64,000 nucleotides of DNA, taken from assembly GCA_030619905.1 (NCBI GenBank), contig JAUXAO010000001.1, positions 48,348 through 112,347 on the forward strand, given 5' to 3'. The notes beneath the pieces are model-generated. The model was not told the origin of the DNA and did not search any database. It saw only the letters and a program-made list of their open reading frames with translations. Position numbers and translations under genes: made by a program. Origin of the DNA: a bacterium (GTDB lineage Bacteria > Patescibacteriota > Minisyncoccia > Minisyncoccales > CG1-02-41-26). This document shows, piece by piece, positions 43,616 to 57,203 of this stretch (its first letter is position 1; every line of letters starts with the position of its first letter).

Positions 43616-43762
43616 TTATTTTATTACTTTTAGCTCTTTATCTCCGTAATGTTTTAAATATTCCTTCCAAATTCCTTCACATTTATCGTATAATTTACAA
43701 GTTCGGCATTTTTCTGTTTTACCTTTAGCAATGATAATGAAAATCAATAATTTTTTCCATAT
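43616..43762 (-). pseudogene. remnant C-terminal fragment (about 45 aa) of an 'EGIWKEYLKHYGDKEL'-family rSAM gene
   Basis: The minus-strand translation ...AKGKTEKCRTCKLYDKCEGIWKEYLKHYGDKELKVIK* is nearly identical to the C-terminus of 45054..45995. It has no N-terminal part. Confidence 0.6.
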
Positions 43763-43765
43763 TCT

Positions 43766-44821
43766 TTAAATCCAACACATCGGGTCTGTTTCCAAATAAT
43801 CATCTCTTAAATTATGTGCCGTTCCTCTGCAACCACCACAAATATTTCGTTTTGGACATTTTCTACATTTACCCTTTAAATTATCTCTATTTCTTAATTT
43901 AAGAAAAAGTTCTGAGGTTAGCCAGAGATTTTTCAAATTATCCTTTCTCACATTCCCAACTTTAATCATTAATACAGGACAAGGAGTCACATCTCCAGTT
44001 GGAGTTATACATAAGCTCGTAACTCCTGCTCCACACCCACCATAAATACTTTTATAGGGACTCTTGGGATAATCGGGATCTAACAAACACTTTAACGGAT
44101 CACCGGTGCTAATTAACAATTTTCCCTCTAATTTTTTTTTATTTCTGTAAATCAATTTAAGTATTTTTTTGTTTTGTTCTTTAGTTAACGCTAAATAGCG
44201 ATTTTTTGCTCCTCTTCCAGTGGGAATAAATCGCTCCAAAGACAAGGCATTAACTTCTAATTTTAAAGCTAATTCAAAAAGTTTTTCTATTACAGGGCTT
44301 GTTTTTGTTAATGATGTTATAACTGAAACCATTGTAACTCTCATACCTTCTTTCTTGGCAATCTTAATTCCCTTAATTACTTTTCTAAATGTACCCTTTC
44401 CTCTTATTTCATCATTTAATTCAGCTGTGGGTCCATCAATACTGAAATGCATTTCTTCCATTCCAGCTTCTTTAAGTTTTTTTATAAGTCCCTTTGTAAC
44501 AATCGTTCCGTTAGTTGCTGTAGAAACTCGCAATCCAGCTTCAGAGGCTTTCTTTGTGTATTCTATGATGTGCTCATGCAACAAAGGTTCTCCACCTGAA
44601 AAAAAAAGCATCTTTACACCAGCTTCTATTATTTGATTAAGTACTTTTAAGCATTCTTCATGACTTAGCTCATCTCTCAGAGCTTTTCCGGAAAAAGAAC
44701 AGCATGTTTTGCACATTAGATTACATTTATGAGTAATTTCCCACACAACCATTATTAAACTATATTCCCTTTCTTTATTAACCATGTTTAAAAAAGTGTC
44801 AATTATTTTTTTACTTGCCAA
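43766..44821 (-). CDS. radical SAM/SPASM-domain protein (TTG start)
   Basis: CNLMCKTC; GGEPL; SPASM C-terminus (CGAGVTSLCITPTGDVTPC ... CRKCPKRNICGGC). Confidence 0.8.
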   Translation of the reverse strand: MASKKIIDTFLNMVNKEREYSLIMVVWEITHKCNLMCKTCCSFSGKALRDELSHEECLKVLNQIIEAGVKMLFFSGGEPLLHEHIIEYTKKASEAGLRVSTATNGTIVTKGLIKKLKEAGMEEMHFSIDGPTAELNDEIRGKGTFRKVIKGIKIAKKEGMRVTMVSVITSLTKTSPVIEKLFELALKLEVNALSLERFIPTGRGAKNRYLALTKEQNKKILKLIYRNKKKLEGKLLISTGDPLKCLLDPDYPKSPYKSIYGGCGAGVTSLCITPTGDVTPCPVLMIKVGNVRKDNLKNLWLTSELFLKLRNRDNLKGKCRKCPKRNICGGCRGTAHNLRDDYLETDPMCWI

Positions 44822-45053
44822 TTATTACTACAAATTTGCCTTTGATTTTACTACTAATTTTATCTTTCTAAATTTTTCCAATTACTCTCTTAATAGTGCA
44901 TTGGCAAATTATTTTAAATTTTCTAATCAATTTACGGTTGGACAATATAATTCTGGACATTATCTGGATCTAACTTAGAAGCTTTACTAAAATATTCTTC
45001 AACTTTTTCTAAATTTCCAAATAGAAATGTTAGGCATGATACAATTAAACAAT

Positions 45054-45995
45054 TCATTTTATTACCTTTAACTCTTTATCTCCGTAATGTTTTAAATATT
45101 CCTTCCAAATTCCTTCACATTTATCATATAATTTACAGTCCTGACATTTCTCCGTTTTGCTTTTAGCTAAATTTATTCTTGATTTTTCCACATTTAAATT
45201 AGTAAAATCTGGAGCAATATGTTCGGTACGGAAAATTTTCAATTCTTCTAATTCGCTTATCTGGTCTAAATAATCTCTAAAATAGCAAAGGGGAACATAT
45301 CGAATATGCCAGTGAGAAATATTATTTTTCCTCCCGATATCTAAACATTTGTGAGCATAGGGAGCTACTTCCGAAATTCGTGGGACAATTTTATCAAAGT
45401 TATCAAAGGCCGCTCCACAAGTTGGATCAACAAAAATAAACTCAGAATCTTTAAATCCTAAATTTAAAAGAAACTCTCCAATTTGAGGAAGATGTCGATA
45501 ATTTTGTTTAACTATAACAGTGTCTGAACCGAGATAAATATTTTTCAGTCTTAGTGCTTTTATATATTTTTTTACGTTTTCTAAACCTTTCTTTAATTTT
45601 TCGAAACTGCCAAGAACTTGTGTCAAAGAATCATGGAGTTCGGCTGTTTCACCATGAATAGAGAAAATAATGTTGTTCAGACCTGCTTTTAATATTTCTT
45701 TGGTAAAAGTTTCATAATAAAACATCATCCCATTAGTTGGAATAGTCATAACTAAAAACCCTAAGTTCCTAGCAAATTTTACTAAATCAATAATATCAGA
45801 CCTAATAGTCATTTCTCCTCCATTCAATTCTATGTAATCGGACCCTTTTTTTCTTGCTTTTATCATCTCTCTTTTTATTTCGTCACTAGTCTTGTCTGGG
45901 ATATCTCTCTTATTGGAATTAAGACAAAATAAACAGTGACAGTTACACCTATATCCAGCAATGATTACTGTTCTTTTTATTTTTTTTCTCTGCAT
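45054..45995 (-). CDS. radical SAM protein (short family '...EGIWKEYLKHYGDKEL')
   Basis: CNCHCLFC; GGEMT; C-terminal CQDCKLYDKCEGIWKEY. Confidence 0.8.
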   Translation of the reverse strand: MQRKKIKRTVIIAGYRCNCHCLFCLNSNKRDIPDKTSDEIKREMIKARKKGSDYIELNGGEMTIRSDIIDLVKFARNLGFLVMTIPTNGMMFYYETFTKEILKAGLNNIIFSIHGETAELHDSLTQVLGSFEKLKKGLENVKKYIKALRLKNIYLGSDTVIVKQNYRHLPQIGEFLLNLGFKDSEFIFVDPTCGAAFDNFDKIVPRISEVAPYAHKCLDIGRKNNISHWHIRYVPLCYFRDYLDQISELEELKIFRTEHIAPDFTNLNVEKSRINLAKSKTEKCQDCKLYDKCEGIWKEYLKHYGDKELKVIK

Positions 45996-47811
45996 ATTTT
46001 GTAAGACTATTTTTATAATCTTTAAATATCTGTTTCCTATCAGAGTAATCGCTTATTTTTTTAGTACTCCAGATTCCATTACAAAATTTAATTTTTTTGT
46101 TTTGGACAGTAAATAATTCTAAACATTCATAACAGTCTTTAGGAATTTTGTAGTTCTGAATAATCTCTCTATGTCTTAAGCCAAATAGACGTTTAGGAAG
46201 AGGCTTGGTCACTTTAAAAAATACTTTATTCTTCTTGAGATTGGAAAGAAAAATTTCCACCTTTTTTCCGGTTTCAATATTTAAATCATTCTTGAAAAAG
46301 TTGAAAGAAAGTAAAAGTAACTTTGGCTTATAGTCTTTATTTTTACAGGATAATATTTGTTTTAATAATAAACTTAAGTCTTTTTGGGCTAGATTAATTT
46401 TAATTAAGGAACTTTTCTCCATTAAATTTCCATCTGTTTCCATTAACTCGAATTTGTTGAAATACATAACGAAAAATAACGCTGATTTCTTCCGTTCAAA
46501 AAAAGGTTTTATTCCCTCCCAATATTTCTCAGCACGATAAAGTATATATTTTTTGGATACCTTTCTCGTAAATAAACAATCTTCTTTGGATGGTTTAAAT
46601 ATGTTTTTTGTTACTCTCAACGCTCGTGAAGGACAACTCCCCCCGCAATTCCATTTTAAAAAACAATCATGACATTTTCTCATATTATTTACAGTTCTCC
46701 TTTGTAAGTATTTAACTTTCTTTTGGTTCAAAATGAACTTGTTATTCTTTTTATCGTATTTCCCATAAATGAAAGGGGACTTTTCATGCGATTCGCCTAG
46801 ATAATCATCATAACATGCGCTGATAAAACCGTCCGTAGTCAACATAAAGTTAGGGATAGAACAATCACAATAAATATTTCTTTTACAATAAATGTTAAAG
46901 AAAACGTTTTCTTTTAGATAAATATCAAGCTCTTCTGCTAATTCTCTCGCAGCCAAAAACTCATTAATGTATGTGTCAAAATCTGGACGCTGAGTGAATA
47001 GACTTGTTGTTTGATCGCTCCTGCCCATTTTAAACAATGGCGAAAAATGTATTTGATTTATACCTAATCTGCGCAAATATTCTAATATTTCCTTCTGTCT
47101 TTCGACTGAATATGCTGTAATAGTAGCTCTAACAAAAAGATTAATATTAAATTTTGAAAGAATTTTTATTGTCCTTTCTATAAAATGACTAGTTTGCTTT
47201 CCATTTTTAGACGGCCTCTGCTTGTCCTGTACAGATGGGGGACCATCACAGGAAATTGAAACCCAATCCATATTTTTTGCCAGCCATAAAGCAGTTTCTT
47301 TTGCAAATACTCCATTTGTTTGAATACCAAAATAAGCTCTTTCTACTCTCTTTCTGGCATAAGCCACTATTTTTTTGACCAATTCTATTCTGACAGTAGG
47401 TTCTCCACCTCCTTGAAAACGAATGCAAAGACTTTTGGGATTCTTTCTAAGTTTTAAGAAAAAATCAATACTTTTTTTTGCTAATTCTAAATTTATATTA
47501 ATCTTTTTTTCTCCTCCTCTGGCATAACAATACTTACACTTTAAATTACAATTCGTCGTTGGGAAAATAAACATTAGAGTCCTAGGACCAAAAGATTGAT
47601 TATCCGGAATTGGCAAAGTATAAGAAACATTTCTATTTTTAATATTTCCTAATTTATTATTAAATAGAAAAACTCTGTTTAGTAAAGAACTATAAAAAAT
47701 ATAACCATCTTTAATTCGGCCTATTCTATGTAAATCCGGCTTAATTCTAATTTTATCATTGAGATTTCTTAGTTTCGAGTTGTCGATTAAATCAAATTTT
47801 TTTGTTTTCAT
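45949..47811 (-). CDS. large radical SAM/SPASM protein (anSME-like core with N- and C-terminal extensions; paralog of 48821..50182); HxsB/HxsC-like candidate
   Basis: CNLKCKYCYARGGEKK; GGGEPT; SPASM (CDCSIPNFMLTTDGFISAC ... CHDCFLKWNCGGSCP). The N-terminal 60 aa are shared with 48821..50182. Confidence 0.8.
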   Translation of the reverse strand: MKTKKFDLIDNSKLRNLNDKIRIKPDLHRIGRIKDGYIFYSSLLNRVFLFNNKLGNIKNRNVSYTLPIPDNQSFGPRTLMFIFPTTNCNLKCKYCYARGGEKKININLELAKKSIDFFLKLRKNPKSLCIRFQGGGEPTVRIELVKKIVAYARKRVERAYFGIQTNGVFAKETALWLAKNMDWVSISCDGPPSVQDKQRPSKNGKQTSHFIERTIKILSKFNINLFVRATITAYSVERQKEILEYLRRLGINQIHFSPLFKMGRSDQTTSLFTQRPDFDTYINEFLAARELAEELDIYLKENVFFNIYCKRNIYCDCSIPNFMLTTDGFISACYDDYLGESHEKSPFIYGKYDKKNNKFILNQKKVKYLQRRTVNNMRKCHDCFLKWNCGGSCPSRALRVTKNIFKPSKEDCLFTRKVSKKYILYRAEKYWEGIKPFFERKKSALFFVMYFNKFELMETDGNLMEKSSLIKINLAQKDLSLLLKQILSCKNKDYKPKLLLLSFNFFKNDLNIETGKKVEIFLSNLKKNKVFFKVTKPLPKRLFGLRHREIIQNYKIPKDCYECLELFTVQNKKIKFCNGIWSTKKISDYSDRKQIFKDYKNSLTKYAEKKNKKNSNHCWI

Positions 47812-48272
47812 TATATTAAATACTAAAAAACATTAAAACTATTATTCTCTCTATTCTTTTTATCTATAGAATTTCTAAATATTCATACTAATAGATTTTA
47901 TGATACTTCTTTTTGAATCGAATTCAATAGACTTGAACCGATAAAAAAATGAACCTGCAGATACGACCGTTATTATTTTATTTTTAGGATCACCAGAATT
48001 TGTAGGAAGTGAGAAATTTATTATAGTAATATCTTTTTTCCTACTCATAATTTATTTATCTTTTATAACTATATCTAAAAAATACTTTATAAATAATTAA
48101 TAACTATTTCCTCCTAAGATGATAGTTATGTCCATCAGAAATACTTTTTACTTAAATAAAAAATAAACACTTAATTTCTTCATCGTTGGATTTGATAATA
48201 AGTGTAAAAACTTGAGATAACTTTTTCAATTTTTGCTATAAAATGCTTACGAGATCAATTACCTTAGAGATG

Positions 48273-48818
48273 TTATTCTATAATCAATTTTAGCTCGGCT
48301 ATAATGGAATTAAACATTCCAACTAATAAATCGTCGTCTTTCGATACAGCAATGGCTTGGTCTCTACCAGGATAGACTGGTTCTGTAAAAAGTATTAGTT
48401 CTTTTCTTTCCTCTGAAATTGTTAAGTCAAAAATTGCATCGCATTTTCTTTCGCTCAGAGCAGGGATAATTTTAGGCCAAGGAACATAATAATAGGTAAT
48501 CTTTATGCCTAATCCTTCTTCTATTGCTTCAGCAATATCTTTATACAATACAGAAGGCACATAGAATCTATCTTGACAGATAGTTATTTCTTTTTTCACA
48601 GCAATATCAGAATTCTCTTTTAACCAACTAACCAATAATTCTTTCTGTTGACCTTCAAGACTAAAATCTAACGGCAGGAATTTCTCTCTGACCTGAAGAT
48701 CTGTTTCAGGAGGAAGATTATTATTAGAAAGAGAAAAATAAATGACACAGCCTAAAACTGCTGAAATAATAATCAAGATAACAAGTATTTTCTTATTTCT
48801 AAAATTAAATAATTTCAT
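48273..48818 (-). CDS. membrane-anchored fragment of a family-3 solute-binding protein (SBP_bac_3 N-lobe only)
   Basis: N-terminal TM helix; the CDAIFDLTISEERKELILFTEPVY block matches the SBP_bac_3 signature D-x6-T-x2-R-x5-F-[ST]-x-P-[YV]; the residue preceding the final P is E rather than the usual S/T (…FTEPVY), so the fit is close but not exact. Only 181 aa, against about 250-280 for a full SBP. Confidence 0.45.
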   Translation of the reverse strand: MKLFNFRNKKILVILIIISAVLGCVIYFSLSNNNLPPETDLQVREKFLPLDFSLEGQQKELLVSWLKENSDIAVKKEITICQDRFYVPSVLYKDIAEAIEEGLGIKITYYYVPWPKIIPALSERKCDAIFDLTISEERKELILFTEPVYPGRDQAIAVSKDDDLLVGMFNSIIAELKLIIE

Positions 48819-48820
48819 TT

Positions 48821-50182
48821 TTATTTAATAGAGCAAAGTTCCTTTTCTACTTTATAAAGTAGATACTCCTTGCTACATTTTTGTTTTGTACTACATCTCT
48901 CCCGATTAACTTTGAACATATCACCTGTCAAAGCGATCGTTTTACTATGACATCCTCCTGCACAATTCCATTTTAAGAAACAATTTTGACAGGATTGCAT
49001 ATTGCAAACTATTCTTTTCTGTAAATAATTAATCCTTTTTTGGTTAAAAACAATTTTCTTTCTTTTTTTATCAAACCTTCCATATATTAATTCTTTCGGA
49101 GCCGTTCTTCCAAGATAGGCTTCATAACAACAGCTGATATAACTATCAGGCGTAAGAAATATATTAGGAATGGAAGCACCACAATGAGCACATGATCTTC
49201 TGTAAACTGGTAAAAAAGCACTTATTAATTTAATATTTAATTCATCCGCTAATTTTTTTGCTTCCAAATAATTCTCTATGTATAAAGCTAGGTCAGGCGC
49301 TTTGGAAAAATTATCTTTTGGCTTAAAGCTCCTTCCTGCCTCAAATATTGGCTCAAAATGAACTGATTTTATGCCTAATTTATGAAAATATTTAATTATT
49401 TCTCTCTGTTTTGTAACGGAAAAAGCAGAAATTGTAGATCTTACTGAAAAAGGATAGTTATTTTTTACCAGGAATTCAATAGTTTTCTCGACAAAAGGAC
49501 TACTTTTATCTCCATCCTTTAATGGCCTCTGTCTATCCTGAATACGAGGTGGCCCATCTATAGATACAGAAAGTTGAAAATTATTCTTTATTAAATAAAC
49601 AAGGGTTGTTTTAGGAAGTTTACCGTTTATTTGGGTACCAAAATTTAATTTATCTATCTTCTTCTCGGCATATTTAATTATTTTCTTTATTAAACCAATT
49701 GCTAAAGTGGGTTCTCCTCCTCCATGAAAGTAAATATTCAAAGATTTTTTATTTCTCTCCGAAATATAATCTAAAACTGTTTTAACAAAACTGAAGTCAA
49801 TTGTTTCCTTTATATCTCCTCCTTGAGCAAAACAATACTTACACTTTAGATTACAGTCAGTAGTCAAAAGGATGAAGAGGTCACCATAATATCGAAACTT
49901 AGTATAAGGATTACAGTAAGAACGAAAAATATTACTATCTTTATTTAACAACAACTTAGCTTGAGAAAATGCTTTTTGTTTATCTTTCGGTATCTTCTTA
50001 GAATTAAGCAGATTTTTTGCCTCTTTATCTAATAAAAAAACTCTGTTTAGCAAAGAACTATAAAGAACATAATCATTTTTTATTTTACCAATATAATGTA
50101 GGTCTGGTATAATTTTTAAATCATCACCGAAACTTATTTTTGCATACGAATTATCTAAAAAATCAATAAAGTTTATTCTCAT
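48821..50182 (-). CDS. radical SAM/SPASM protein directly upstream-adjacent to the HxS-repeat genes (HxsB/HxsC-like candidate)
   Basis: CNLKCKYCFAQGGDIKE; GGGEPT; SPASM (CAHCGASIPNIFLTPDSYISCC ... CQNCFLKWNCAGGCH). Confidence 0.8.
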   Translation of the reverse strand: MRINFIDFLDNSYAKISFGDDLKIIPDLHYIGKIKNDYVLYSSLLNRVFLLDKEAKNLLNSKKIPKDKQKAFSQAKLLLNKDSNIFRSYCNPYTKFRYYGDLFILLTTDCNLKCKYCFAQGGDIKETIDFSFVKTVLDYISERNKKSLNIYFHGGGEPTLAIGLIKKIIKYAEKKIDKLNFGTQINGKLPKTTLVYLIKNNFQLSVSIDGPPRIQDRQRPLKDGDKSSPFVEKTIEFLVKNNYPFSVRSTISAFSVTKQREIIKYFHKLGIKSVHFEPIFEAGRSFKPKDNFSKAPDLALYIENYLEAKKLADELNIKLISAFLPVYRRSCAHCGASIPNIFLTPDSYISCCYEAYLGRTAPKELIYGRFDKKRKKIVFNQKRINYLQKRIVCNMQSCQNCFLKWNCAGGCHSKTIALTGDMFKVNRERCSTKQKCSKEYLLYKVEKELCSIK

Positions 50183-50205: not shown

Positions 50206-50745
50206 TTATATTTCTGCCCCAACTCCCGCACAACAAGGACAAGCACTACCATGGGAAGAATGATTAGAATGGGAGTCGTGAGAACTATGGGAACCATGAG
50301 AACCATGAGAAGAATGAGAAGAATGGGAGGCATGAGAACAATGAGATTGATGAGAACTATGAGAACTGTGAGATCCATGAGATCCATGAGATCCATGGGA
50401 AGAATGGGAAGAATGGGAACTGTGCGAGCCATGCGAGCCGTGGGAAACATGGGATCCATGAGAGCCATGCGAGCCATGAGAGACATGAGAAGAATGGGAG
50501 CCATGCGAGCCATGGGAAACATGAGAAGAATGGGATGTATGGGAGGCATGGGAAGAATGGGAAGAGTGGTCACATTTCCACTCTGCCTGAACATCCTTAG
50601 CGATCATAGACCCTCCTACAGCTGCACCTAACACAAGAAGCATTGTTCCTGCTTTAACAATGTCTTTTTTATTGACATTTCCTTCTTCAGAGGTAAGAAA
50701 GGCTTTAATATTCTTTTTAAATTTTGGCAATAATTTGTTTTCCAT
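50206..50745 (-). CDS. His-Xaa-Ser repeat precursor-like protein (HxsA-like), copy 1: leader followed by about 35 consecutive HxS triplets and a Cys-rich tail
   Basis: MENKLLPKFKKNIKAFLTSEEGNVNKKDIVKAGTMLLVLGAAVGGSMIAKDVQAEWKCD, then HSS HSS HAS HTS HSS HVS HGS ... HGS, then ACPCCAGVGAEI. The leader is shared with copy 2. Confidence 0.8.
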   Translation of the reverse strand: MENKLLPKFKKNIKAFLTSEEGNVNKKDIVKAGTMLLVLGAAVGGSMIAKDVQAEWKCDHSSHSSHASHTSHSSHVSHGSHGSHSSHVSHGSHGSHGSHVSHGSHGSHSSHSSHSSHGSHGSHGSHSSHSSHQSHCSHASHSSHSSHGSHGSHSSHDSHSNHSSHGSACPCCAGVGAEI

Positions 50746-50770
50746 TTTTTATCTATATTCGAATATTTTA

Positions 50771-51166
50771 TTAACACCAACCACCCTGAGCATGAGAACT
50801 ATGAGAACCGTGTGAGGCATGAGAACAATGGGAACTATGGGAACGATGGCAAGAACTATGAGATCCATGGGAAGAATGGGAAGAATGGGAACTGTGCGAG
50901 CCATGCGAGCCATGAGAGACATGAGAAGAATGGGAGCCATGCGAGCCATGAGAGACATGAGAAGAATGGGAAGAATGGGAACCATGGGAAGAATGTTCAC
51001 ACTCAGGCCACTGGGCTTGCACTTCACGAGCAATCATAGACCCTCCTACAGCTGCACCTAACACAAGAAGCATTGTTCCTGCTTTAACAATGTCTTTTTT
51101 ATTGACATTTCCTTCTTCAGAGGTAAGAAAGGCTTTAATATTCTTTTTAAATTTTGGTAGCTTCAT
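50771..51166 (-). CDS. His-Xaa-Ser repeat precursor-like protein (HxsA-like), copy 2: same leader followed by about 22 HxS triplets and a Cys/Trp tail
   Basis: MKLPKFKKNIKAFLTSEEGNVNKKDIVKAGTMLLVLGAAVGGSMIAREVQAQWPECE, then HSS HGS HSS HSS HVS ..., then AQGGWC. Confidence 0.8.
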   Translation of the reverse strand: MKLPKFKKNIKAFLTSEEGNVNKKDIVKAGTMLLVLGAAVGGSMIAREVQAQWPECEHSSHGSHSSHSSHVSHGSHGSHSSHVSHGSHGSHSSHSSHSSHGSHSSCHRSHSSHCSHASHGSHSSHAQGGWC

Positions 51167-51630
51167 TCTTGTTCACTTACCATTTTAGTTATTCTAATAG
51201 CTGTAAATTCATTAAGTTCATTGATTCCATCACGAGTTGACTCAATTGTCACTACTACAACATCATCGTCTACGCCTATTTCAGAAAACTCACAGGGATT
51301 TTTTTGTTTGTCATCTACGTAGTAAACTTCACACTCTGTATTGTTTGTAAGTTTGATAGTCTTTTCCATTGTTTCTTCCTGGGCATTTTCAATTAGAAAG
51401 GTTCTTGCTTCTATTTTAAAAGTCATTTCTTCAGAATCGATTGCCTTAACTATCCCCTCTATAAGATTATTTGGATATTCTTCTTCCAAAAGTTCTCTGT
51501 CTTCCTCTTCAGTAACAGGAGGCTGATAGGTCAATGCCAGAAAACCGATCAGAGCAACAATAATTACTCCTATTAAAATAAATAAATTCCTTTTATTTTT
51601 TTTCATAATTTTCATAATTTCAGTTTTCAT
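51163..51630 (-). CDS. cluster-specific membrane-anchored protein (paralog of 56841..57203)
   Basis: N-terminal TM helix. The YPNNLIEGI and NEFTAIRITKM motifs are shared with 56841..57203 (YPPNLIEGK, SKFTATKISKF). Confidence 0.45.
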   Translation of the reverse strand: MKTEIMKIMKKNKRNLFILIGVIIVALIGFLALTYQPPVTEEEDRELLEEEYPNNLIEGIVKAIDSEEMTFKIEARTFLIENAQEETMEKTIKLTNNTECEVYYVDDKQKNPCEFSEIGVDDDVVVVTIESTRDGINELNEFTAIRITKMVSEQE

Positions 51631-51719
51631 AATTTTATATTATTATATTATTATATGTTATTATATTATTTTATCTTACCAAATTAGACAGTGTCAAGCA
51701 ATTATCTTAAAAATTATAT

Positions 51720-52802
51720 CTAAAAGCAAATCTCTTCCTCTATTCTTTGAATATAATGGTTAAATAAGTTGTTACTTAAAGCATTAAGTTTAATTTTCTT
51801 GGAGGCTTTTAAACAAAGATTACGGCATATTCCATATACTTTCTCAGCTTTTTTATCAGCATAAGGATAATCAGAAGAATAATTTAATTGGCACATCTGA
51901 CAATTATGATTTTTAAAATTATATTTGCACTTTTTAAAACTTCCAAAAAATCCGGAATTAACATTGCCAATAATATATTTCTCTTTATCTGGAGAGTTTA
52001 ACAAAAAAGGGGAAAAGGCCATTATGCCTGAGGGATAAACTTCCAGGTTATACCAGAAAGGACATTCGATCCTAAGCGATTGACTGATTTTCTGATACTT
52101 AATTTCCCAATTAACCGGATTTAGAAATATAAAGTTCTCTTTTTGAATATTAATGAGAATAAAATCTATAATTTTATTGAAACTCGAAATAAATTTCTTC
52201 TGAGCCTCTTTTGACCATTCTTCGTACTGCTGGATTATTTCAAAACTCATATGATTAAAGCCGAGTTTTAATAGATGTTTAAAATTCTTTTCCATCCTTA
52301 TTACCGTAGAAGGAAATAAACAGAAACCAACGCCTAAATTCTTTCTGGGAATTTTTTCAAAAATCATTGGTAGTTTTTTTGAAATTATTTCATAAGTACC
52401 TTCGTTTTTCTCCAGATTTCTGAATTTATCCTGGTCAGACCTTCCTCCCACCAAGCTGATAATTAATTTTATGTCATGTTTTTCTAGAAAATCTAAATGT
52501 TTTTTTTCGAGCAAAACAGCGTTCGTACAAACTGTTGTGGTCAAATTCTTTTTCAACTTTTTAGCTTGAGATATCGCATAAGGTACCATTTCCTTAATTA
52601 ACTTAAAATTAAGTAAAGGTTCACCGCCATAAATTGATAAAAGTTTATCTTCCCCCCGCGATTTTAACAACAAATCAATACTATTTTTGGCAGTAGTAAG
52701 GTCCATGTATTCATTAGTCTTTTTTACAAAACAGTAATCACAGTTAAGATTACATTTTGTAGTTATGGCTAATTTTATTCTGTTTATTCGTTTTTTTATC
52801 AT
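51720..52802 (-). CDS. radical SAM protein with Cys-rich C-terminal (twitch/SPASM-like) region
   Basis: CNLNCDYC; GGEPL; C-terminal CPFWYN ... CQMCQLNYS ... CRNLC. Confidence 0.75.
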   Translation of the reverse strand: MIKKRINRIKLAITTKCNLNCDYCFVKKTNEYMDLTTAKNSIDLLLKSRGEDKLLSIYGGEPLLNFKLIKEMVPYAISQAKKLKKNLTTTVCTNAVLLEKKHLDFLEKHDIKLIISLVGGRSDQDKFRNLEKNEGTYEIISKKLPMIFEKIPRKNLGVGFCLFPSTVIRMEKNFKHLLKLGFNHMSFEIIQQYEEWSKEAQKKFISSFNKIIDFILINIQKENFIFLNPVNWEIKYQKISQSLRIECPFWYNLEVYPSGIMAFSPFLLNSPDKEKYIIGNVNSGFFGSFKKCKYNFKNHNCQMCQLNYSSDYPYADKKAEKVYGICRNLCLKASKKIKLNALSNNLFNHYIQRIEEEICF

Positions 52803-52803: not shown

Positions 52804-53664
52804 TTATCTAAAATAAACCTCCAATTGTTTATTTTTAATAGCTATGAAGCTAACTCTAAAGTTTTTAACATGAGTTTTAATTTGTTCTAAAAAAGATTTA
52901 TGGGAGCTGAAACAAGACATTTTTGAAAACTGTTTGAAATCTAATCCTTTACAGCGAAAATATATGTCTTTTGAAAAAGGTTTATTATTTCTAAATCTAG
53001 TTAGTAAACCAATTCTTTTTATCGGCTTCAACTTATTAAGTTGTTGGAATACATTTTTCTCTTCCTTTCTTAAAATTTTAGAAGATGCTTTTATCGCCTG
53101 ATAAATTTTTAATGAACACTCACCATTTGGATAAAAATCGAAAATAATATTTTCTATATTAGTAAAATTTTGGTAAAGTGACTCCCATCTCTTTATTCCC
53201 AAAAATTTGCCTATAGTGGGTAGTAATTTAGTACTAACAGGATTTAAACCGATGCTAATTTTATCGAATTGGTTGCTAAAAGAATTAAAATCAACGTAAA
53301 ATACGATTACGTCATTTTTTCTTCCATGGGATAATGGAATAGATAAGATAAAATCTAAGATTTTTCGGTTAAACTTGAATTTAAAATTATCACTAATTTT
53401 TTTAAAAATATTTAATAGAATATCGCCTTTTATAAAATCTTGACATTTTTTTCGTCCAGAAAGCTTTGAATAATGAAAACAATAGGTAGCCTTAACCACT
53501 TTAAATTTTTCCATAGTGTTAAAAGAACTTTCAATATGATATCTTACCTTAGATTTTCTTAGATTATCGCCTAAATCAACTATCTTAAAAAATAACTTCT
53601 GGGTCTTTTTCGGGACTTTTATTAAAAATTTACTCGCCCATTTTTTATATTTATTTCTAGTCAT
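52804..53664 (-). CDS. hypothetical protein (no rSAM motif) inside the Hxs-like core
   Basis: 286 aa, basic, no recognisable motifs; packed at 2-nt spacing between rSAM genes. Confidence 0.4.
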   Translation of the reverse strand: MTRNKYKKWASKFLIKVPKKTQKLFFKIVDLGDNLRKSKVRYHIESSFNTMEKFKVVKATYCFHYSKLSGRKKCQDFIKGDILLNIFKKISDNFKFKFNRKILDFILSIPLSHGRKNDVIVFYVDFNSFSNQFDKISIGLNPVSTKLLPTIGKFLGIKRWESLYQNFTNIENIIFDFYPNGECSLKIYQAIKASSKILRKEEKNVFQQLNKLKPIKRIGLLTRFRNNKPFSKDIYFRCKGLDFKQFSKMSCFSSHKSFLEQIKTHVKNFRVSFIAIKNKQLEVYFR

Positions 53665-53680: not shown

Positions 53681-54787
53681 TCATAATGGTCTACTTTTCC
53701 ATTTTAAGATATTCTTTATTTTTAGAAAAGAAGAAATATAAATTTTTGAAATATTACAAAAGGTTTTAAAATATTTTTTAAAATCTTTCTCATTCTCAAT
53801 GCACCAGAGATATAAACCTATAGGACAAAAACAGTAATTTTCTAAAGAACACTTCAGACAACTATTTTGAGTTGATTCAACTATTTCTCTTTTTGCCTTT
53901 TTTAATAGCTCTAATCTTTTTACATAATTAACTCCTTTTTCTCCATTGCCAATTATGTATTTTTTTCTTCTGTTATCAAAGAAAGAAAATATTTTGTCAC
54001 AAAGATAAAAGTTCCCATCTGGACCTAATATCAGTTTTTGGCAGCAGAAATTATCACTATCTTTGTTCAACATCCTATTTATAAAAAGAATTTCGAGAGA
54101 AGAATCATAATTAGAATTCAAACTGCTATAAAATTCAGCAAATATATCAAATTCTTTTTTTAAAACATTAAGATGCTTCTTTGACCATAATCTATATATT
54201 TCTGGATAAAAATCTAGCTGGGAAAAACCATTCTCAACAAAAAACTTAATATTTTTGTTAAAATATTCTACTGTTTCCGGAGTAAAAACCGAACAAATCT
54301 TAATCTTTTTTTTATCCAAATCCTTGATATTACCCCAAGTTGTCTTAAAAACAGAAGATTTTCCATCTTTAAACACTCTATTTATATCATTTATATTTTT
54401 TCTACCATCTAGGCTCACTGAAAGAACAATATTATTTTTCTTTAAAAAGTCATACTTTTTTTTATTAAGTAAAGTTCCATTGGTAGAAACTATTATAATA
54501 GATTCCTTCCCTTTTTGGTTTTTCCTAACCGATTCTATTAATTTTTTTAGAGAAGACCAATATAACAAAGGTTCTCCTCCGGTAAAACTTATAACAGGAT
54601 TTTCTGAAGGATTTCTCAAAAAGAAATTAATTCCTTTTTTTATTAAAGGAATATTTAAAGGGATTTTTCTCAGGTTTTCTTTATCAATAAAACAATAGCT
54701 GCAATCAAGATTGCAGCTCCCACCAAGAAAAATAGAAAGAGAATGATATTTCATAAATAATACTAATGTTATCTTCTGCTGGTCCAT
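53681..54787 (-). CDS. radical SAM/SPASM-like protein (HxsC-like candidate)
   Basis: CNLDCSYC; GGEPL; C-terminal CCQKLILGPDGNFYLC ... CLKCSLENYCFC. Confidence 0.75.
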   Translation of the reverse strand: MDQQKITLVLFMKYHSLSIFLGGSCNLDCSYCFIDKENLRKIPLNIPLIKKGINFFLRNPSENPVISFTGGEPLLYWSSLKKLIESVRKNQKGKESIIIVSTNGTLLNKKKYDFLKKNNIVLSVSLDGRKNINDINRVFKDGKSSVFKTTWGNIKDLDKKKIKICSVFTPETVEYFNKNIKFFVENGFSQLDFYPEIYRLWSKKHLNVLKKEFDIFAEFYSSLNSNYDSSLEILFINRMLNKDSDNFCCQKLILGPDGNFYLCDKIFSFFDNRRKKYIIGNGEKGVNYVKRLELLKKAKREIVESTQNSCLKCSLENYCFCPIGLYLWCIENEKDFKKYFKTFCNISKIYISSFLKIKNILKWKSRPL

Positions 54788-56214
54788 TTCTTAAGCACCT
54801 TTAAACTCTTGGGTTCTTCGAATTTCTGGAATAGATAATCTAAGATACCTCTGTTTACCTGACAGCGAAAATTATTTGGAGTCTGGGAAAAAATGTTATC
54901 ACCTTCAGAATAATTAAAGACAGGACAAACTCCACAATAAGGAAGGTAAACGCACTCGCTGCATCCGCTAAGCCCTTCTAATGTGGAAGCAAGACATAAA
55001 GATTTAGTTACTGGTGAAGAAATAATTTCCTCATAACTATTTTTGTAGACATTACCAATTTTAAATGTCTCATCACCCATCTGACCGAGCATTCTTCCCT
55101 CATCGCACGTGTAAATGTCTCCGTTATAATGATAAGCTATCTGGCCGATACCTGCTCCACAAGGGGAGCGAAGATCTAAAAAATTAGGATCATTATCAGT
55201 AAATACTTTTTGAATAATTATAGCTGCTGTTCTTTCTCTAATCCTTACTCCTTTGATATTTAATTTTATAATATAGTCTAACGCCTTCTTGTAAAATTCA
55301 AGAAATTCCTCTGCTGTATATCCTATCACCTTTTGAAGACTCTTGGCCATTCCAAAAGGATTAAGGGGTCTTAGATGAATATCTCTCGCGCCTAATTTCA
55401 CATATTCATCGACAATCTCTTTCCAGAAAGGAAGAGAATATCGGGTTGTGGTTACTAAAGCGTTTACTCGATATCCCAAACCCCTATATTTATCTTTTAC
55501 CTTTTTAATTCTTTGTAATGTAATAGAATGACCATTCTTTTTATTAATCATTGGCCTATTCTTATTATGAAGCTTTTCTGGTCCGTCCAAGGAACTGCAC
55601 ATAGAAATCTTTTTGTTATAGAGCCAATTTAATTTCTTGTCATCCAAGAGTGTCAGGGTGGAAACTAAACTAAACCTTAATTTTTTCTTTGCTTTCTTAT
55701 TTTTCTCAAGCGCATAATCTACAATAAATTTAACTATCTCAAAATTTGCCAATGGTTCTCCTCCCTGAAATTCAATAATAATCTCAGAGGAAGTAGTTTG
55801 GAAAATCATATCTACTACCTTTTTGGCCGTCTTTTTCGTCATATCTAAATCTTTCCTAGCCATACTTTTCGAGGAAGCATGACAATATATACAAGCATGG
55901 TCGCAACGAAGAGTAATAACAATAATATGCAAACTTGGTCCTTGGGTTAAATATTTATGACGCTGAGCATATATTTGAGTCATCTGCATCTGACAATTTT
56001 GACAATTCCACGATTCAGAAGTAAAATGTTTTTTATCTAATTCCTTGTAGATAATACTGTTTCTTTTCAATTTACCTTGCGTGAAATCTTTAAATTCCTT
56101 TTCCTTAAGGAATCTAAAATCACCAAGATCATTGGTTAAAAGATATTTATTTCCTAATTTCCTAAAGCGAAGAAGTCCTGTTGAATTAATTTTTGATTTA
56201 TTATGATTATGCAT
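54769..56214 (-). CDS. radical SAM/SPASM protein with an N-terminal extension (about 100 aa) (HxsB-like candidate)
   Basis: CDHACIYC; GGEPL; SPASM (CGAGIGQIAYHYNGDIYTC ... CSECVYLPYCGVC). Adjacent to the HxsD-like gene. Confidence 0.8.
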   Translation of the reverse strand: MHNHNKSKINSTGLLRFRKLGNKYLLTNDLGDFRFLKEKEFKDFTQGKLKRNSIIYKELDKKHFTSESWNCQNCQMQMTQIYAQRHKYLTQGPSLHIIVITLRCDHACIYCHASSKSMARKDLDMTKKTAKKVVDMIFQTTSSEIIIEFQGGEPLANFEIVKFIVDYALEKNKKAKKKLRFSLVSTLTLLDDKKLNWLYNKKISMCSSLDGPEKLHNKNRPMINKKNGHSITLQRIKKVKDKYRGLGYRVNALVTTTRYSLPFWKEIVDEYVKLGARDIHLRPLNPFGMAKSLQKVIGYTAEEFLEFYKKALDYIIKLNIKGVRIRERTAAIIIQKVFTDNDPNFLDLRSPCGAGIGQIAYHYNGDIYTCDEGRMLGQMGDETFKIGNVYKNSYEEIISSPVTKSLCLASTLEGLSGCSECVYLPYCGVCPVFNYSEGDNIFSQTPNNFRCQVNRGILDYLFQKFEEPKSLKVLKKWTSRR

Positions 56215-56410
56215 TTTTAATTAATCCTAAAACATAATTACAAAATTCTTCTTTTATCACATTTCTTGATTCTGGATCTATATTTTTCAAATCAACTTTG
56301 ATATTTTTTTTACCCACTTCTATATCAAAATCAGCCAATCCTTTATAGTCATGGATGGCTTTTTCAATAGATTTCAGATTGTAAAAATTCCTATTGAAGT
56401 TAATAGTCAT
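56207..56410 (-). CDS. 67-aa hypothetical protein between the HxsD-like gene and the rSAM gene
   Basis: Overlaps both neighbours by 4-8 nt (translational coupling); no motifs. Confidence 0.3.
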   Translation of the reverse strand: MTINFNRNFYNLKSIEKAIHDYKGLADFDIEVGKKNIKVDLKNIDPESRNVIKEEFCNYVLGLIKNA

Positions 56411-56844
56411 GATTTTTTCTTCTCTCCATATCTTTCTTCCCAGGGTACAGCAATCCCAAGAGGATCTTCTTCAAATACTTCTTCTACTCCTTTTTCTCTC
56501 GTCTCTTGGGGAGAAAGAGCAGAAAATAAAGCTCTTTCAACAATAGTATCGCGAATCTTTCCTGTATTCTTGGCAATAGACAGTCTTAAAACATAATTCA
56601 GAAGTTCATTCTTAAATTCCCCGACTAATATTTCCAGTTCCTTGGAATTTAATTCCTTTTTTCCTTTTATGGAAACTTTTATTTCTTTTTTAGGATTCCC
56701 ATTTAAAAATAAATAAGCCCGATCAATAAAAACATAACAGGCTCCATAAACAGCTTCTAAAGGATACACGTCAGGATTAAGAGAGATTATAATCTCATTC
56801 TTTTTTTTAGTAATTTTTATACTTTTTTTATTTTTTGATTTCAT
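56407..56844 (-). CDS. HxsD-like protein (His-Xaa-Ser system accessory protein candidate)
   Basis: 145 aa. It contains ELLNYVLRL, resembling the LLNDYxLRE signature after which the HxsD family model is named. Located first in the operon. Confidence 0.45.
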   Translation of the reverse strand: MKSKNKKSIKITKKKNEIIISLNPDVYPLEAVYGACYVFIDRAYLFLNGNPKKEIKVSIKGKKELNSKELEILVGEFKNELLNYVLRLSIAKNTGKIRDTIVERALFSALSPQETREKGVEEVFEEDPLGIAVPWEERYGEKKKS

Positions 56845-57203
56845 TTACTTTTCTGATAATTAACGAATTTACTTATTTTAGTGGCTGTAAATTTACTGAT
56901 CTCATCTATTTTTTCATAGGTTGGTTCTTTGGTACTGATTACTATACAATCTCCTTTTCTAAATCTCGAAAACATTATGAGAGATTCTTTCTTTGTGGCC
57001 ATATCATATAATACAAGTTTAGTTTTTGGGGTAAGTTTAATTGTTTTTTTCATAAAAGGAGCCTTGGCCGTGCTAATTTTTGAAGTATCTGCATTCAAAA
57101 CCAAACTCTTTGGAATTGAGTAGTCAATTTTTAAAATCTTGCCTTCTATTAGATTAGGAGGATATTCTAACTCAGGCTGTATTTGTTTCTTCTTTTTTCG
57201 CAT
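56841..57203 (-). CDS. cluster-specific protein, paralog of 51163..51630 (lacks the TM anchor)
   Basis: Shares the YPPNLIEGK and SKFTATKISKF motifs with 51163..51630. Confidence 0.4.
   Translation of the reverse strand: MRKKKKQIQPELEYPPNLIEGKILKIDYSIPKSLVLNADTSKISTAKAPFMKKTIKLTPKTKLVLYDMATKKESLIMFSRFRKGDCIVISTKEPTYEKIDEISKFTATKISKFVNYQKSK

What the first reader, a model, noticed from the sequence alone, without database searches (positions are those of the whole stretch)
50206..51166. Two tandem genes encoding almost pure His-Xaa-Ser triplet arrays behind a shared leader
Both minus-strand ORFs start with the same roughly 55-aa leader (…KFKKNIKAFLTSEEGNVNKKDIVKAGTMLLVLGAAVGGSMIA…, containing a hydrophobic helix). 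Copy 1 then carries about 35 uninterrupted H-x-S triplets and copy 2 about 22, with X restricted to S/G/V/A/T/Q/C/D/R. The arrays are bracketed by Cys residues (AEWKCD…ACPCCAGVGAEI; QWPECE…AQGGWC). This matches the architecture of HxsA 'His-Xaa-Ser repeat protein' precursors of the His-Xaa-Ser (Hxs) system defined by comparative genomics, whose chemistry is still unknown. Here there are two copies of unusual repeat length, sitting immediately beside SPASM radical SAM maturases. The product could be a heavily modified or cross-linked His/Ser polymer, or a metal-chelating peptide.
Basis: partly seen in the sequence, partly recalled or inferred. Interest (0 to 1): 0.95.

Follow-up and report, generated by a model that had tools for sequence, protein, structure and literature searches.

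The report
Tandem His-Xaa-Ser precursors in CPR bacterium
Two neighbouring genes in a tiny uncultured (Patescibacteria) bacterium encode secreted proteins made almost wholly of His-x-Ser triplets, and they belong to a catalogued but chemically unsolved radical-SAM maturation system (Hxs) whose only studied relative blocks phage DNA entry.

Summary
Minus-strand ORFs 50206..50745 (179 aa) and 50771..51166 (131 aa) share a leader that is 100% identical over about 125 nt. They carry 35 and 22 in-register H-x-S triplets, with longest runs of 33 and 16 against at most 6 in 20,000 shuffles. Both pass NCBIfam's curated cut-offs for HxsA4 and HxsA3. A true HxsB, an HxsD and an HxsD-like protein lie upstream. 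No protein reaches the HxsC cut-off, although eight HxsC-like paralogues are present. The host is a Patescibacteria (CPR) bacterium. The order HxsD, HxsD-like, HxsB, leader-HxS precursor recurs in about 30 CPR genomes, with 5 to 50 or more triplets, so long arrays are normal for this clade. Close relatives differ by whole 12-aa blocks. Each precursor has a conserved hydrophilic leader, a Sec-type hydrophobic region with an AxA site, a variable array and a conserved Cys-bearing C-terminus. The 15-rSAM block is two separable modules. One is the Hxs module, 42.6–57.2 kb, with 8 rSAM genes. The other is a widespread CPR module with HxsC-like rSAMs and an A24 prepilin-type peptidase. The chemistry is unknown. 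A 2026 paper showed that the canonical proteobacterial system is anti-phage. This locus is a new variant of a known kind, interesting but less novel than first scored.

The parts
50206..50745 (-). HxsA copy 1 (179 aa). Leader and signal region are residues 1-54 (50584..50745). The HxS array is residues 60-167 (50245..50568). The tail is the Cys-rich ACPCCAGVGAEI.
   Evidence: NF038313 96.4 bits (cut-off 55) and NF038309 70.8 bits (cut-off 65).
50771..51166 (-). HxsA copy 2 (131 aa). Leader and signal region are residues 1-51 (51014..51166). The HxS array is residues 58-124 (50795..50995). The tail is AQGGWC. Its start overlaps the stop of the upstream gene (ATGA).
   Evidence: NF038313 71.0 bits and NF038309 65.4 bits.
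51163..51630 (-). TM155, a single-pass membrane protein of unknown function, translationally coupled to copy 2. It is a paralogue of p120 (56841..57203).
   Evidence: It lies directly upstream of HxsA in L001 and L005-L008. It has no Pfam or NCBIfam family.
51668..51697 (-). Promoter-like site (TTGACA-18-TAAAAT, 11 of 12 matches) in the 90-nt gap upstream of TM155, copy 2 and copy 1.
   Evidence: This is a consensus match only.
54769..56214 (-). HxsB, a radical SAM/SPASM maturase with an N-terminal extension.
   Evidence: TIGR03978 535.9 bits (cut-off 370). It is 40% identical over its full length to the annotated Aeromonas HxsB.
56407..56844 (-). HxsD (145 aa).
   Evidence: TIGR03976 63.9 bits (cut-off 50).
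56207..56410 (-). HxsD-like small protein (67 aa).
   Evidence: NF038315 70.3 bits (cut-off 41). It lies between HxsD and HxsB in about 25 loci.
56841..57203 (-). p120, a paralogue of TM155, marking the upstream edge of the Hxs module.
   Evidence: It is syntenic in L006 and L007.
53681..54787 (-). HxsB/PapB-like SPASM radical SAM protein (368 aa), with no N-terminal extension.
   Evidence: The best hit is PapB at 147.5 bits (cut-off 340). CxxxCxxC is intact.
52804..53664 (-). unk286, a protein of unknown function conserved within the window's clade.
   Evidence: No family found. Present in L001 and L005-L008.
51720..52802 (-). HxsB/PapB-like radical SAM protein (360 aa).
48821..50182 (-). HxsB/PapB-like SPASM radical SAM protein (453 aa) with an HxsB-type N-terminal extension, starting 23 nt downstream of copy 1.
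48273..48818 (-). Membrane-anchored fragment of an SBP_bac_3 solute-binding domain (181 aa).
   Evidence: PF00497 51.3 bits. Syntenic in L001.
47875..48048 (-). In-frame deletion remnant (57 aa) of a B12-binding radical SAM gene.
   Evidence: tblastn of the intact 454-aa L001 protein matches only its first 35 and last 35 residues here. About 1.2 kb is missing relative to L001.
45949..47811 (-). HxsB/PapB-like SPASM radical SAM protein (620 aa) with N- and C-terminal extensions.
45054..45995 (-). HxsC-like radical SAM protein (313 aa).
   Evidence: Best hit is HxsC4 at 145 bits (cut-off 500). It has a C-terminal CxxCx5C motif like canonical HxsC.
43766..44821 (-). AhbD/NirJ2-like SPASM radical SAM protein (351 aa).
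   Evidence: Syntenic in L001.
42670..43599 (-). The closest HxsC equivalent (309 aa). It lacks the N-terminal domain of about 110 aa found in canonical HxsC.
   Evidence: TIGR03977 184.6 bits (cut-off 267.9). It is 26% identical (1e-30) to Aeromonas HxsC from residue 116 on. Retained in L001.
30985..42502 (-). Adjoining Module 2. It holds a PAD-like protein, a SPASM rSAM (40155..41297) and six HxsC-like rSAMs (39228, 38253, 37273, 36413, 34474, 33299). It also holds a DUF483-like protein (35440..36348), an A24 GxGD peptidase (32095..33402) and an Ig/PKD protein (30985..32025). It is distributed separately from the Hxs genes, so whether it belongs to the Hxs system is uncertain.
   Evidence: It occurs without HxsA, B or D in L037-L039. 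It is absent next to the Hxs module in L001.

Best explanation
These are two paralogous precursor genes of a Patescibacteria-type His-Xaa-Ser (Hxs) maturation system, belonging to NCBIfam subfamilies HxsA3 and HxsA4. Each product has four parts. First is a conserved hydrophilic leader of about 30 aa with an invariant F-L-x-x-E-E-G motif. Second is a Sec-type hydrophobic segment followed by a -3/-1 small-residue site (VQA|E, VQA|Q). Third is a length-variable HxS array. Fourth is a conserved C-terminal stretch with Cys-, Gln-, Arg- or Asp-containing triplets and a Cys motif. The proposed mechanism has several steps. Shown here: the family memberships, the gene linkage and the domain anatomy. 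Inferred by analogy with the canonical system (PMC13128918): in the cytoplasm the leader docks the precursor on HxsB and on an HxsC-like/HxsD(-like) pair. These enzymes install radical-SAM modifications on particular His/Ser motifs, most likely in the conserved C-terminal triplets. Inferred from best-hit similarity and co-occurrence: the four extra HxsB/PapB-like SPASM enzymes act on the Cys-bearing ends, probably forming thioether-type cross-links. Inferred from sequence: the protein is then exported and its N-terminus is removed. That leaves an extracytoplasmic, largely unstructured His ladder of 125 or 80 residues (36 or 23 His). The ladder is cationic at mildly acidic pH and multivalent for polyanions or metals. 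The function is not established. The only experimental precedent is an envelope barrier to phage DNA entry, and I rate that reading at about 0.3 here. Metal capture or another surface or host-interaction role is about equally likely.
For: HMM membership is met for HxsA4/A3, HxsB, HxsD and HxsD-like, and 25 of 25 family members match HxsA3. HxsD, HxsD-like, HxsB and the precursor are adjacent in about 25 of 30 genome loci and in 5 further metagenomic loci. All 15 rSAM proteins keep CxxxCxxC. The C-like paralogues share the CxxCx5C motif with canonical HxsC. Every family member has a hydrophobic segment (Kyte-Doolittle about 2) followed 6-12 residues later by a -3/-1 site just before the Cys/His core. 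The AF2 model predicts a leader helix (residues 9-19) and a TM helix (26-44), with the array at pLDDT below 50. Length changes among close relatives are whole 12-aa blocks in the leader-proximal and middle array, while the C-terminal 30-45 residues are conserved. Extra HxsB-like SPASM genes occur in 6 of 6 loci whose cores have 2 or more Cys and end in GGWC, GSWC or CPCC, and in only 1 of 17 loci with single-Cys …SSY cores. In the canonical system HxsB, C and D are all needed for N-terminal processing, a +8 Da modification maps to the last HxS motif, and each repeat is needed for function.
Against: No protein reaches the HxsC or HxsC4 cut-off, and the C-like proteins lack the N-terminal domain of canonical HxsC. 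There is no peptidoglycan-binding domain. X is neutral (S or G) rather than basic as in canonical HxsA, so the electrostatic DNA-binding model transfers poorly. The neighbourhoods are housekeeping or transporter genes, not defence islands, and PADLOC gave nothing specific. The correlation between Cys content and B-like enzymes rests on about 2-3 independent lineages. No modification, export or cleavage has been observed for any member of this subfamily. The signal-peptide call is by inspection, because no dedicated predictor was available.
Confidence: 0.7

Rival explanations
1. The product is a secreted RiPP-type natural product. After leader removal the modified His/Ser/Cys peptide is released as a metallophore or metal-buffering peptide (H-x-x-H spacing throughout), or as an antimicrobial or signalling peptide. 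It would not be an envelope-resident defence effector.
For: His recurs at i and i+3 for up to 36 positions, and Cys residues bracket the array. The same leader also fronts short Cys/Pro/Trp-rich cores typical of RiPPs. Neighbours in distant loci include MacB/FtsX and other ABC transporters, solute-binding proteins and an S8 peptidase. There is no defence-island context. A solute-binding-domain fragment lies inside the module.
Against: The window's module has no dedicated exporter or leader peptidase. Products of 80-125 residues are long for a diffusible RiPP. The only experimental data for an Hxs system point to defence.
Confidence: 0.25
2. The product is a pilin-like substrate. The co-located A24 (prepilin-type) GxGD peptidase cleaves the leader just before the invariant F-L-x-x-E-E, recalling Phe1 and Glu5 of type IV pilins, and the HxS array is displayed on or with type IV pili.
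Against: The -1 residue is variable (A, D, N, K, R, H, M, Y) instead of Gly. A polar stretch of 9-10 residues separates the motif from the hydrophobic segment. The precursors do not hit N_methyl. The peptidase module occurs without any such leader in L037-L039. L001 has the Hxs module without the peptidase module. The peptidase is most simply the lineage's PilD.
Confidence: 0.07
3. These are generic His-rich metal-storage or low-complexity proteins that merely sit near radical SAM genes.
For: The composition is extreme: 20% His and 28% Ser in copy 1.
Against: The curated HMM cut-offs are met through the leader, not only through the repeats (profile positions 2-91 of 93). HxsD, HxsD-like and HxsB are adjacent in nearly all relatives.
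Confidence: 0.03
4. The ORFs are artefacts of repetitive DNA, or the array is a collagen-like Gly-X-Y triple-helix protein.
For: Period-9/18/36 tandem DNA repeats leave all six frames open. There are weak hits to Scl collagen-like adhesins at 22 bits. Some relatives are pure (GSH)n.
Against: The leader, start codon, mixed TCN/AGT Ser codons and cross-lineage protein conservation fix the frame. In the window Gly fills the X position in only 13 of 35 and 7 of 22 triplets, so an uninterrupted Gly-X-Y register is absent. The Scl scores are far below the cut-offs of 325-400.
Confidence: 0.02

Closest known systems
Canonical HXS anti-phage system of Pseudomonadota (HxsD-HxsB-HxsC-HxsA; PMC13128918, Nat Commun 2026; families TIGR03976-TIGR03979)
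   Same: Both have an HxsB orthologue (40% identity over full length, above the equivalog cut-off) and an HxsD above its cut-off. Both have an exported substrate with tandem HxS triplets. Both have HxsC-type rSAM proteins with CxxxCxxC plus a C-terminal CxxCx5C motif.
   Different: The arrays have 22-35 neutral triplets against 5-6 basic ones. The precursors have no peptidoglycan-binding domain. A long conserved leader precedes the signal segment. There are two tandem precursors and an extra HxsD-like protein. No protein reaches the HxsC cut-off, and the C-like proteins lack the N-terminal domain of about 110 aa. Four extra HxsB-like SPASM enzymes are present. The gene order is D-D'-B-…-A-A-…-C instead of D-B-C-A. 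The host is Patescibacteria, whereas 99.7% of canonical systems are in Pseudomonadota.
NCBIfam HxsA3 (NF038309), HxsA4 (NF038313), HxsD-like (NF038315) and HxsC4 (NF038332)
   Same: Both precursors and the 67-aa protein pass the curated cut-offs, and the whole CPR precursor family matches.
   Different: The HxsC-like paralogues score only 111-184 bits against the HxsC4 cut-off of 500. These families are database definitions, and no experimental or published description was found.
Triceptides: three-residue cyclophane RiPPs made by SPASM rSAM enzymes on aromatic-X-X motifs, including His-C2 to Cβ links on HAA, HNR and HTK (PMC11499958)
   Same: H-x-S fits the Ω1-X2-X3 motif, the motif is tandemly repeated, and SPASM rSAM maturases are adjacent.
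   Different: The window's SPASM enzymes score far below the XyeB, GrrM/OscB, YhhB and FxsB cut-offs (42-79 bits against 310-450). The canonical HxS modification is +8 Da, not the −2 Da of a cyclophane. No chemistry is known here.
Ranthipeptide, sactipeptide and SCIFF thioether maturases (PapB, SCIFF maturase, QhpD)
   Same: These are the best NCBIfam hits of the four extra SPASM enzymes (PapB 138-148 bits). The precursors carry conserved Cys at both ends, and the enzymes co-occur with Cys-rich cores.
   Different: All scores are far below the cut-offs of 340-425. The cores are dominated by His and Ser, not by Cys/Asp/Glu motifs.

Membership tests
Hxs (His-Xaa-Ser) system, canonical definition | An HxsA repeat protein with tandem His-Xaa-Ser triplets | tested here: met
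   There are 35 and 22 triplets. The proteins pass the HxsA4 and HxsA3 cut-offs. The original TIGR03979 model does not list either window protein at E<=0.01 and matches only 2 of 25 family members.
Hxs (His-Xaa-Ser) system, canonical definition | HxsB radical SAM/SPASM maturase (TIGR03978) | tested here: met
   54769..56214 scores 535.9 bits against a cut-off of 370 and is 40% identical to the annotated Aeromonas HxsB.
Hxs (His-Xaa-Ser) system, canonical definition | HxsC radical SAM maturase (TIGR03977) | tested here: not met
   The best scores are 184.6 bits (42670..43599) and 165.3 bits (33299..34237) against a cut-off of 267.9. These proteins lack the canonical N-terminal domain but share the CxxCx5C motif.
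Hxs (His-Xaa-Ser) system, canonical definition | HxsD small protein (TIGR03976, LLNDYxLRE motif) | tested here: met
   56407..56844 scores 63.9 bits against a cut-off of 50. The motif reads ELLNYVLRL.
Hxs (His-Xaa-Ser) system, canonical definition | Gene order hxsD-hxsB-hxsC-hxsA (99.6% of systems) and four genes only | tested here: not met
   The order here is p120-D-D'-B-rSAM-unk-rSAM-TM155-A-A-rSAM-…-C-like. Compare.
Hxs (His-Xaa-Ser) system, canonical definition | HxsA carries a signal peptide and a peptidoglycan-binding domain | tested here: not met
   A signal-like hydrophobic region and an AxA site are present by inspection. There is no PG-binding domain, no Pfam hit, and the protein ends 12 or 6 residues after the array.
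Hxs (His-Xaa-Ser) system, canonical definition | rSAM-dependent N-terminal processing, a +8 Da modification on an HxS motif, and anti-phage activity | not testable with these tools
   These are experimental properties from PMC13128918.
NCBIfam HxsA4 / HxsA3 subfamilies | Whole-protein score at or above the curated cut-off | tested here: met
   HxsA4 scores 96.4 and 71.0 against 55. HxsA3 scores 70.8 and 65.4 against 65. The match covers the leader as well as the repeats (profile positions 2-91 of 93).
NCBIfam HxsA4 / HxsA3 subfamilies | Partner HxsD-like protein (NF038315) | tested here: met
   56207..56410 scores 70.3 bits against a cut-off of 41.
NCBIfam HxsA4 / HxsA3 subfamilies | Partner HxsC4 radical SAM protein (NF038332) | tested here: not met
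   Eight paralogues score 111-184 bits against a cut-off of 500.
Triceptides (three-residue cyclophane RiPPs) | A precursor with aromatic-X-X motifs | tested here: met
   H-x-S is repeated 35 and 22 times. His-containing motifs are accepted substrates in the family.
Triceptides (three-residue cyclophane RiPPs) | A maturase belonging to a cyclophane-synthase family (XyeB, GrrM/OscB, YhhB, FxsB, AmcB) | tested here: not met
   The scores are 42-79 bits against cut-offs of 310-450, and are lower than the hits to PapB or SCIFF.
Triceptides (three-residue cyclophane RiPPs) | An aromatic-C to Cβ cross-link (−2 Da per motif) | not testable with these tools
   This needs MS and NMR of the product.
Type IV pilin-like (class III signal peptide) proteins | Gly at -1, Phe/Met at +1 and Glu at +5, with the hydrophobic helix starting at +1, and an N_methyl motif | tested here: not met
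   F and E are invariant, but the -1 residue is variable and a polar stretch precedes the TM segment. There is no PF07963 hit.
Bacterial collagen-like proteins | An uninterrupted Gly-X-Y register | tested here: not met
   Gly fills only 13 of 35 and 7 of 22 X positions. The Scl hits score 18-22 bits against cut-offs of 325-400.

The most novel reading that the evidence does not exclude
The radical SAM set converts most or all H-x-S triplets into covalently cross-linked units, for example His-C2 to Ser-Cβ three-residue rings or the unsolved +8 Da structure, and staples the Cys-bearing ends. That would give a ribosomal poly-macrocyclic His polymer of up to 35 consecutive rings, exported to the surface of an ultrasmall CPR bacterium. 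It would be a new class of polymeric RiPP or protein material. Repeat-number polymorphism would tune its length, and it could serve as a phage-DNA barrier or a metal sponge.
Probability: 0.15. Interest if true: 0.85.

Novelty: new variant of a known kind. Interest (0 to 1): 0.6.

Why it matters
The chemistry of the Hxs modification has been open since the system was defined by comparative genomics. Even the 2026 functional study could not reconstitute it or name the +8 Da product. The CPR subfamily offers short, domain-free precursors in which the target motif is repeated dozens of times, together with simplified HxsC-like enzymes that lack the N-terminal domain. If those enzymes are tractable, these would be favourable substrates for MS and NMR. 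It also matters that an Hxs system is broadly present in Patescibacteria, because the published survey placed 99.7% of systems in Pseudomonadota. These organisms have very small genomes, yet this one spends about 15 kb on the module, or about 26 kb if the neighbouring rSAM module is counted. Whether the product defends against phage, handles metals or mediates contact with a host cell would bear on CPR biology. The side finding of a conserved CPR module of HxsC-like rSAM enzymes, a prepilin-type peptidase and an Ig/PKD protein is undescribed in the literature I could search.

Tried and rejected
These steps led nowhere or were rejected.

- Exact-sequence look-ups of the window's HxsA copy 1 and HxsB found nothing, so the window's own assembly is not in that collection.
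- The search for related loci with the full, diverse precursor alignment failed because no stretch was conserved enough. A tighter leader-only alignment worked.
- PADLOC 2023 has no HXS models and returned only weak viperin-type rSAM similarity.
- A viral-contig scan with the leader found no relative.
- The Haft and Basu 2011 paper that defined the system could not be read. Literature searches for a CPR rSAM and peptidase module or for CPR Hxs systems found nothing.
- The idea that all 15 rSAM genes form one Hxs cluster was rejected. The lower module occurs without HxsA, B or D (L037-L039), and the close relative L001 has the Hxs module without it.
- A collagen-like triple helix was rejected, because the Gly register is broken.
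- A pilin-type leader was rejected, because the -1 residue is variable and a polar spacer precedes the TM segment.
- A lipoprotein signal was rejected. The residues before the conserved Cys do not fit a lipobox, and in the window the Cys is 4-5 residues past the AxA site.
- Shadow ORFs in other frames were rejected as genes.
- A defence-island context was looked for and not found.
Full report
OBSERVATION. The two minus-strand ORFs are real: 50206..50745 (179 aa) and 50771..51166 (131 aa). Copy 1 has 33 uninterrupted in-register H-x-S triplets, one H-S-N, then two more, giving 35. Copy 2 has 16, a single inserted Cys that shifts the register, then six more, giving 22. X is restricted to S, G, V, A, T, Q, C and D in copy 1 and to S, G, V, R, C and A in copy 2. 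Shuffling the residues of each mature peptide 20,000 times never gave a run longer than 6. The leaders are identical in protein from LPKFKK to GGSMIA and identical in DNA over about 125 nt, which indicates recent duplication or gene conversion. At the DNA level the arrays are period-9/18/36 tandem repeats. That is why every frame on both strands is open there, and those other ORFs are shadows. The HxS frame is the selected one for three reasons. It continues from a start codon and the conserved leader. Ser is written with both TCN and AGT codons. Relatives at 40-60% leader identity keep HxS as protein.

FAMILY MEMBERSHIP.
- Both precursors pass the curated NCBIfam cut-offs for HxsA4 (96.4 and 71.0 bits, cut-off 55) and HxsA3 (70.8 and 65.4 bits, cut-off 65). 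The match spans the leader as well as the repeats.
- 54769..56214 is HxsB (535.9 bits against 370).
- 56407..56844 is HxsD (63.9 against 50).
- 56207..56410 is the HxsD-like protein (70.3 against 41).
- No protein reaches the HxsC cut-off (best 184.6 against 267.9) or the HxsC4 cut-off (best 184.4 against 500).

Eight proteins of about 300 aa nonetheless have HxsC or HxsC4 as their best hit. They share the C-terminal CxxCx5C motif of canonical HxsC. Against an annotated canonical locus (Aeromonas plasmid, hxsD-B-C-A), the window's HxsB is 40% identical over its full length. The best C-like protein aligns at 26% only from canonical residue 116 onward, so the N-terminal domain is missing.

ORGANISM AND RELATIVES. 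RNase Y from the window is 67-71% identical to proteins named Patescibacteria, Gribaldobacteria, Paceibacteria or Parcubacteria. The window has 32% GC, many tRNA genes, a type IV pilus operon and housekeeping flanks. A leader-only search of one genome per species returned 30 loci, almost all from Patescibacteria MAGs. An exhaustive search returned 46 cluster representatives. HxsD, HxsD-like, HxsB and the precursor are adjacent in about 25 of these loci, and in five further metagenomic loci examined through their called genes. Array length ranges from 5 to more than 50 triplets (L019 has 42, L034 has 46, L008 has 41). The window's arrays are therefore long against canonical HxsA, which has 5-6 repeats, but ordinary for this clade. 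L001 is 86% identical to the window in DNA, and its two precursors are 119 and 152 aa. In L005 they are 155 and 191 aa. The differences are whole blocks of 12 residues (HSSHVSHGSHGS, 36 nt) in the leader-proximal and middle array. The last 30-45 residues, with the Cys-, Gln-, Arg- and Asp-containing triplets and the terminal ACPCCAGVGAEI or GGWC motifs, are conserved.

PRECURSOR ANATOMY. The family alignment has invariant F, L, E and E in K-x-F-L-T-S-E-E-G. Every member then has a hydrophobic segment (Kyte-Doolittle about 2) followed 6-12 residues later by a -3/-1 small-residue site immediately before the first Cys or His of the core. In the window these sites are VQA|EW and VQA|QW. They predict mature products of 125 and 80 residues with 36 and 23 His, 5 and 4 Cys, and almost no fixed charge. 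AlphaFold predicts a short leader helix and a TM helix and leaves the array unstructured. The signal-peptide reading is by inspection only. The same leader also fronts a minority of non-HxS cores that are rich in Cys, Pro or Trp, which suggests it is a general recognition and export handle in these bacteria.

CLUSTER ANATOMY. Fifteen genes between 33.3 and 56.2 kb encode radical SAM proteins, all with an intact CxxxCxxC motif. They are not one unit.

Module 1 spans 42.6-57.2 kb. It runs p120, HxsD, HxsD-like, HxsB, two HxsB/PapB-like rSAMs with an unknown 286-aa protein between them, TM155, the two precursors, two more HxsB-like SPASM enzymes, a solute-binding fragment, two HxsC-like enzymes and an AhbD-like SPASM enzyme. 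This module is syntenic in L001 and L005-L008. TM155's stop codon overlaps the start codon of copy 2. A promoter-like site lies in the gap upstream of TM155.

Module 2 spans 31-42.5 kb. It contains a SPASM enzyme, six HxsC-like enzymes, a DUF483-like protein, a polytopic membrane protein and an Ig/PKD protein. It recurs at 59-67% identity in loci that have no HxsA, B or D within 10 kb, including a complete Nealsonbacteria genome. It is not adjacent to Module 1 in L001. It does neighbour Hxs genes in several distant loci (L002, L006, L009, L012, L023, L029), so a functional link is possible but unproven.

MECHANISM. What is shown here is membership, linkage and anatomy. What is known for the canonical system (PMC13128918) is as follows. 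HxsB, HxsC and HxsD are each required for a non-canonical N-terminal processing of HxsA. HxsC binds HxsD. A +8 Da change maps to the last HxS motif (SHRSS). Every repeat is required, and the periplasmic product blocks phage DNA entry.

By analogy I infer a leader-guided cytoplasmic modification by HxsB and an HxsC-like/HxsD(-like) pair, most likely in the conserved C-terminal triplets, followed by export and N-terminal removal. The four extra SPASM enzymes are best matched, though far below cut-off, by thioether-forming PapB, SCIFF and QhpD-type maturases. They occur in 6 of 6 loci with multi-Cys cores ending in GGWC or CPCC, and in 1 of 17 loci with single-Cys cores ending in SSY. I therefore infer that they act on the Cys-bearing ends. 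That correlation rests on only two or three independent lineages. H-x-S also fits the Ω1-X2-X3 motif of triceptides, where His-C2 to Cβ rings are established chemistry. However, the window's enzymes do not belong to the cyclophane-synthase families, and the canonical mass shift is not −2 Da.

FUNCTION. The anti-phage reading rests solely on homology of HxsB and HxsD. Several points count against it. There is no peptidoglycan-binding domain. The X residues are neutral rather than basic. No defence genes lie in any neighbourhood examined. There is no PADLOC signal. Strain-level repeat polymorphism fits an arms race, but it fits slippage under weak constraint equally well. Metal binding through H-x-x-H spacing, or a surface or host-contact role, is equally open. 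I rate anti-phage at about 0.3.

COMPARISON AND NOVELTY. The precursor subfamily, the HxsD-like protein and an HxsC4 family are already curated in NCBIfam, so the kind is catalogued. I found no paper on these subfamilies or on Hxs in Patescibacteria. The published survey assigns 99.7% of systems to Pseudomonadota. A defining component (HxsC at its cut-off), the gene order and the HxsA domain architecture are all not met. I therefore file this as a new variant of a known kind rather than a plain member. My interest score is 0.6. The system is real, striking and chemically unsolved, and its substrates are attractive. It is nonetheless neither uncatalogued nor unique in repeat length.

Noticed in passing
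window 47875..48048 (-): This 57-aa ORF is the in-frame fusion of the first 35 and last 35 codons of a B12-binding radical SAM gene. The gene is intact (454 aa) in the close relative L001, so about 1.2 kb has been deleted here.
   Followed up: yes
window 30985..42502 (-); L037, L038, L039: A conserved Patescibacteria module holds 5-7 HxsC-like rSAM enzymes of about 300 aa, a DUF483-like protein, an A24 prepilin-type peptidase translationally coupled to the last rSAM gene, and an Ig/PKD protein. Pilin-like genes often follow it. It occurs with or without Hxs genes. Two of its rSAM enzymes are 59-67% identical across distant CPR lineages. Its function is unknown and I found no literature on it.
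   Followed up: partly
[not shown]
   Followed up: yes
window 50698..50715 and 51128..51145 (leader motif): The invariant F-L-x-x-E-E of the leader recalls Phe1 and Glu5 of type IV pilins. The -1 residue is variable and a polar spacer precedes the TM segment, so the resemblance may be coincidental.
   Followed up: partly
L029 335-895 and 9989-10609; L031 9989-11296; L006 9995-11662: The same leader fronts other cores: a Cys/His/Ser-rich core, a W-S-D-W repeat core, and a 435-aa protein with two Hint-like repeats in a MAG labelled Aenigmatarchaeota. In L006 an array of at least 50 HxS triplets is fused in one ORF to a C-terminal domain of about 330 aa, which may be a real fusion or an assembly artefact.
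   Followed up: no
L005 (JAFCDK010000057.1): This 4.6-kb contig is labelled Candidatus Pacearchaeota archaeon. It is syntenic with the bacterial window and 98% identical in the leader, so it is probably mis-binned.
   Followed up: no
window 51163..51630 and 56841..57203 (-): Two paralogous small proteins of unknown family share the motif E-Y-P-x-N-L-I-E-G. One bounds the Hxs module and the other sits immediately before the precursors. Both are conserved in position in L001 and L005-L008.
   Followed up: partly
window 42597..44917 vs L001 9545..11928: The order of the HxsC-like gene and the AhbD-like SPASM gene is swapped between the window and its 86%-identical relative.
   Followed up: no
contig carrying P0018 (JGI 3300075153): A distant family member has HxsD, a 64-aa protein, HxsB, a 314-aa protein and the precursor, followed by eight radical SAM genes in a row. 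Multi-rSAM expansion next to these precursors therefore recurs outside the window's clade.
   Followed up: no
window 41312..42502 (-): This membrane-anchored protein has a weak Porphyromonas-type peptidyl-arginine/agmatine deiminase domain (30.8 bits) and lies between the two rSAM modules. It is not seen in related loci.
   Followed up: no
window 60010..61992 (-): A 660-aa ORF among housekeeping genes has no Pfam family at E<=1e-5.
   Followed up: no
window 3923..28872: Fifteen tRNA genes lie in several small clusters, a high density for 64 kb.
   Followed up: no
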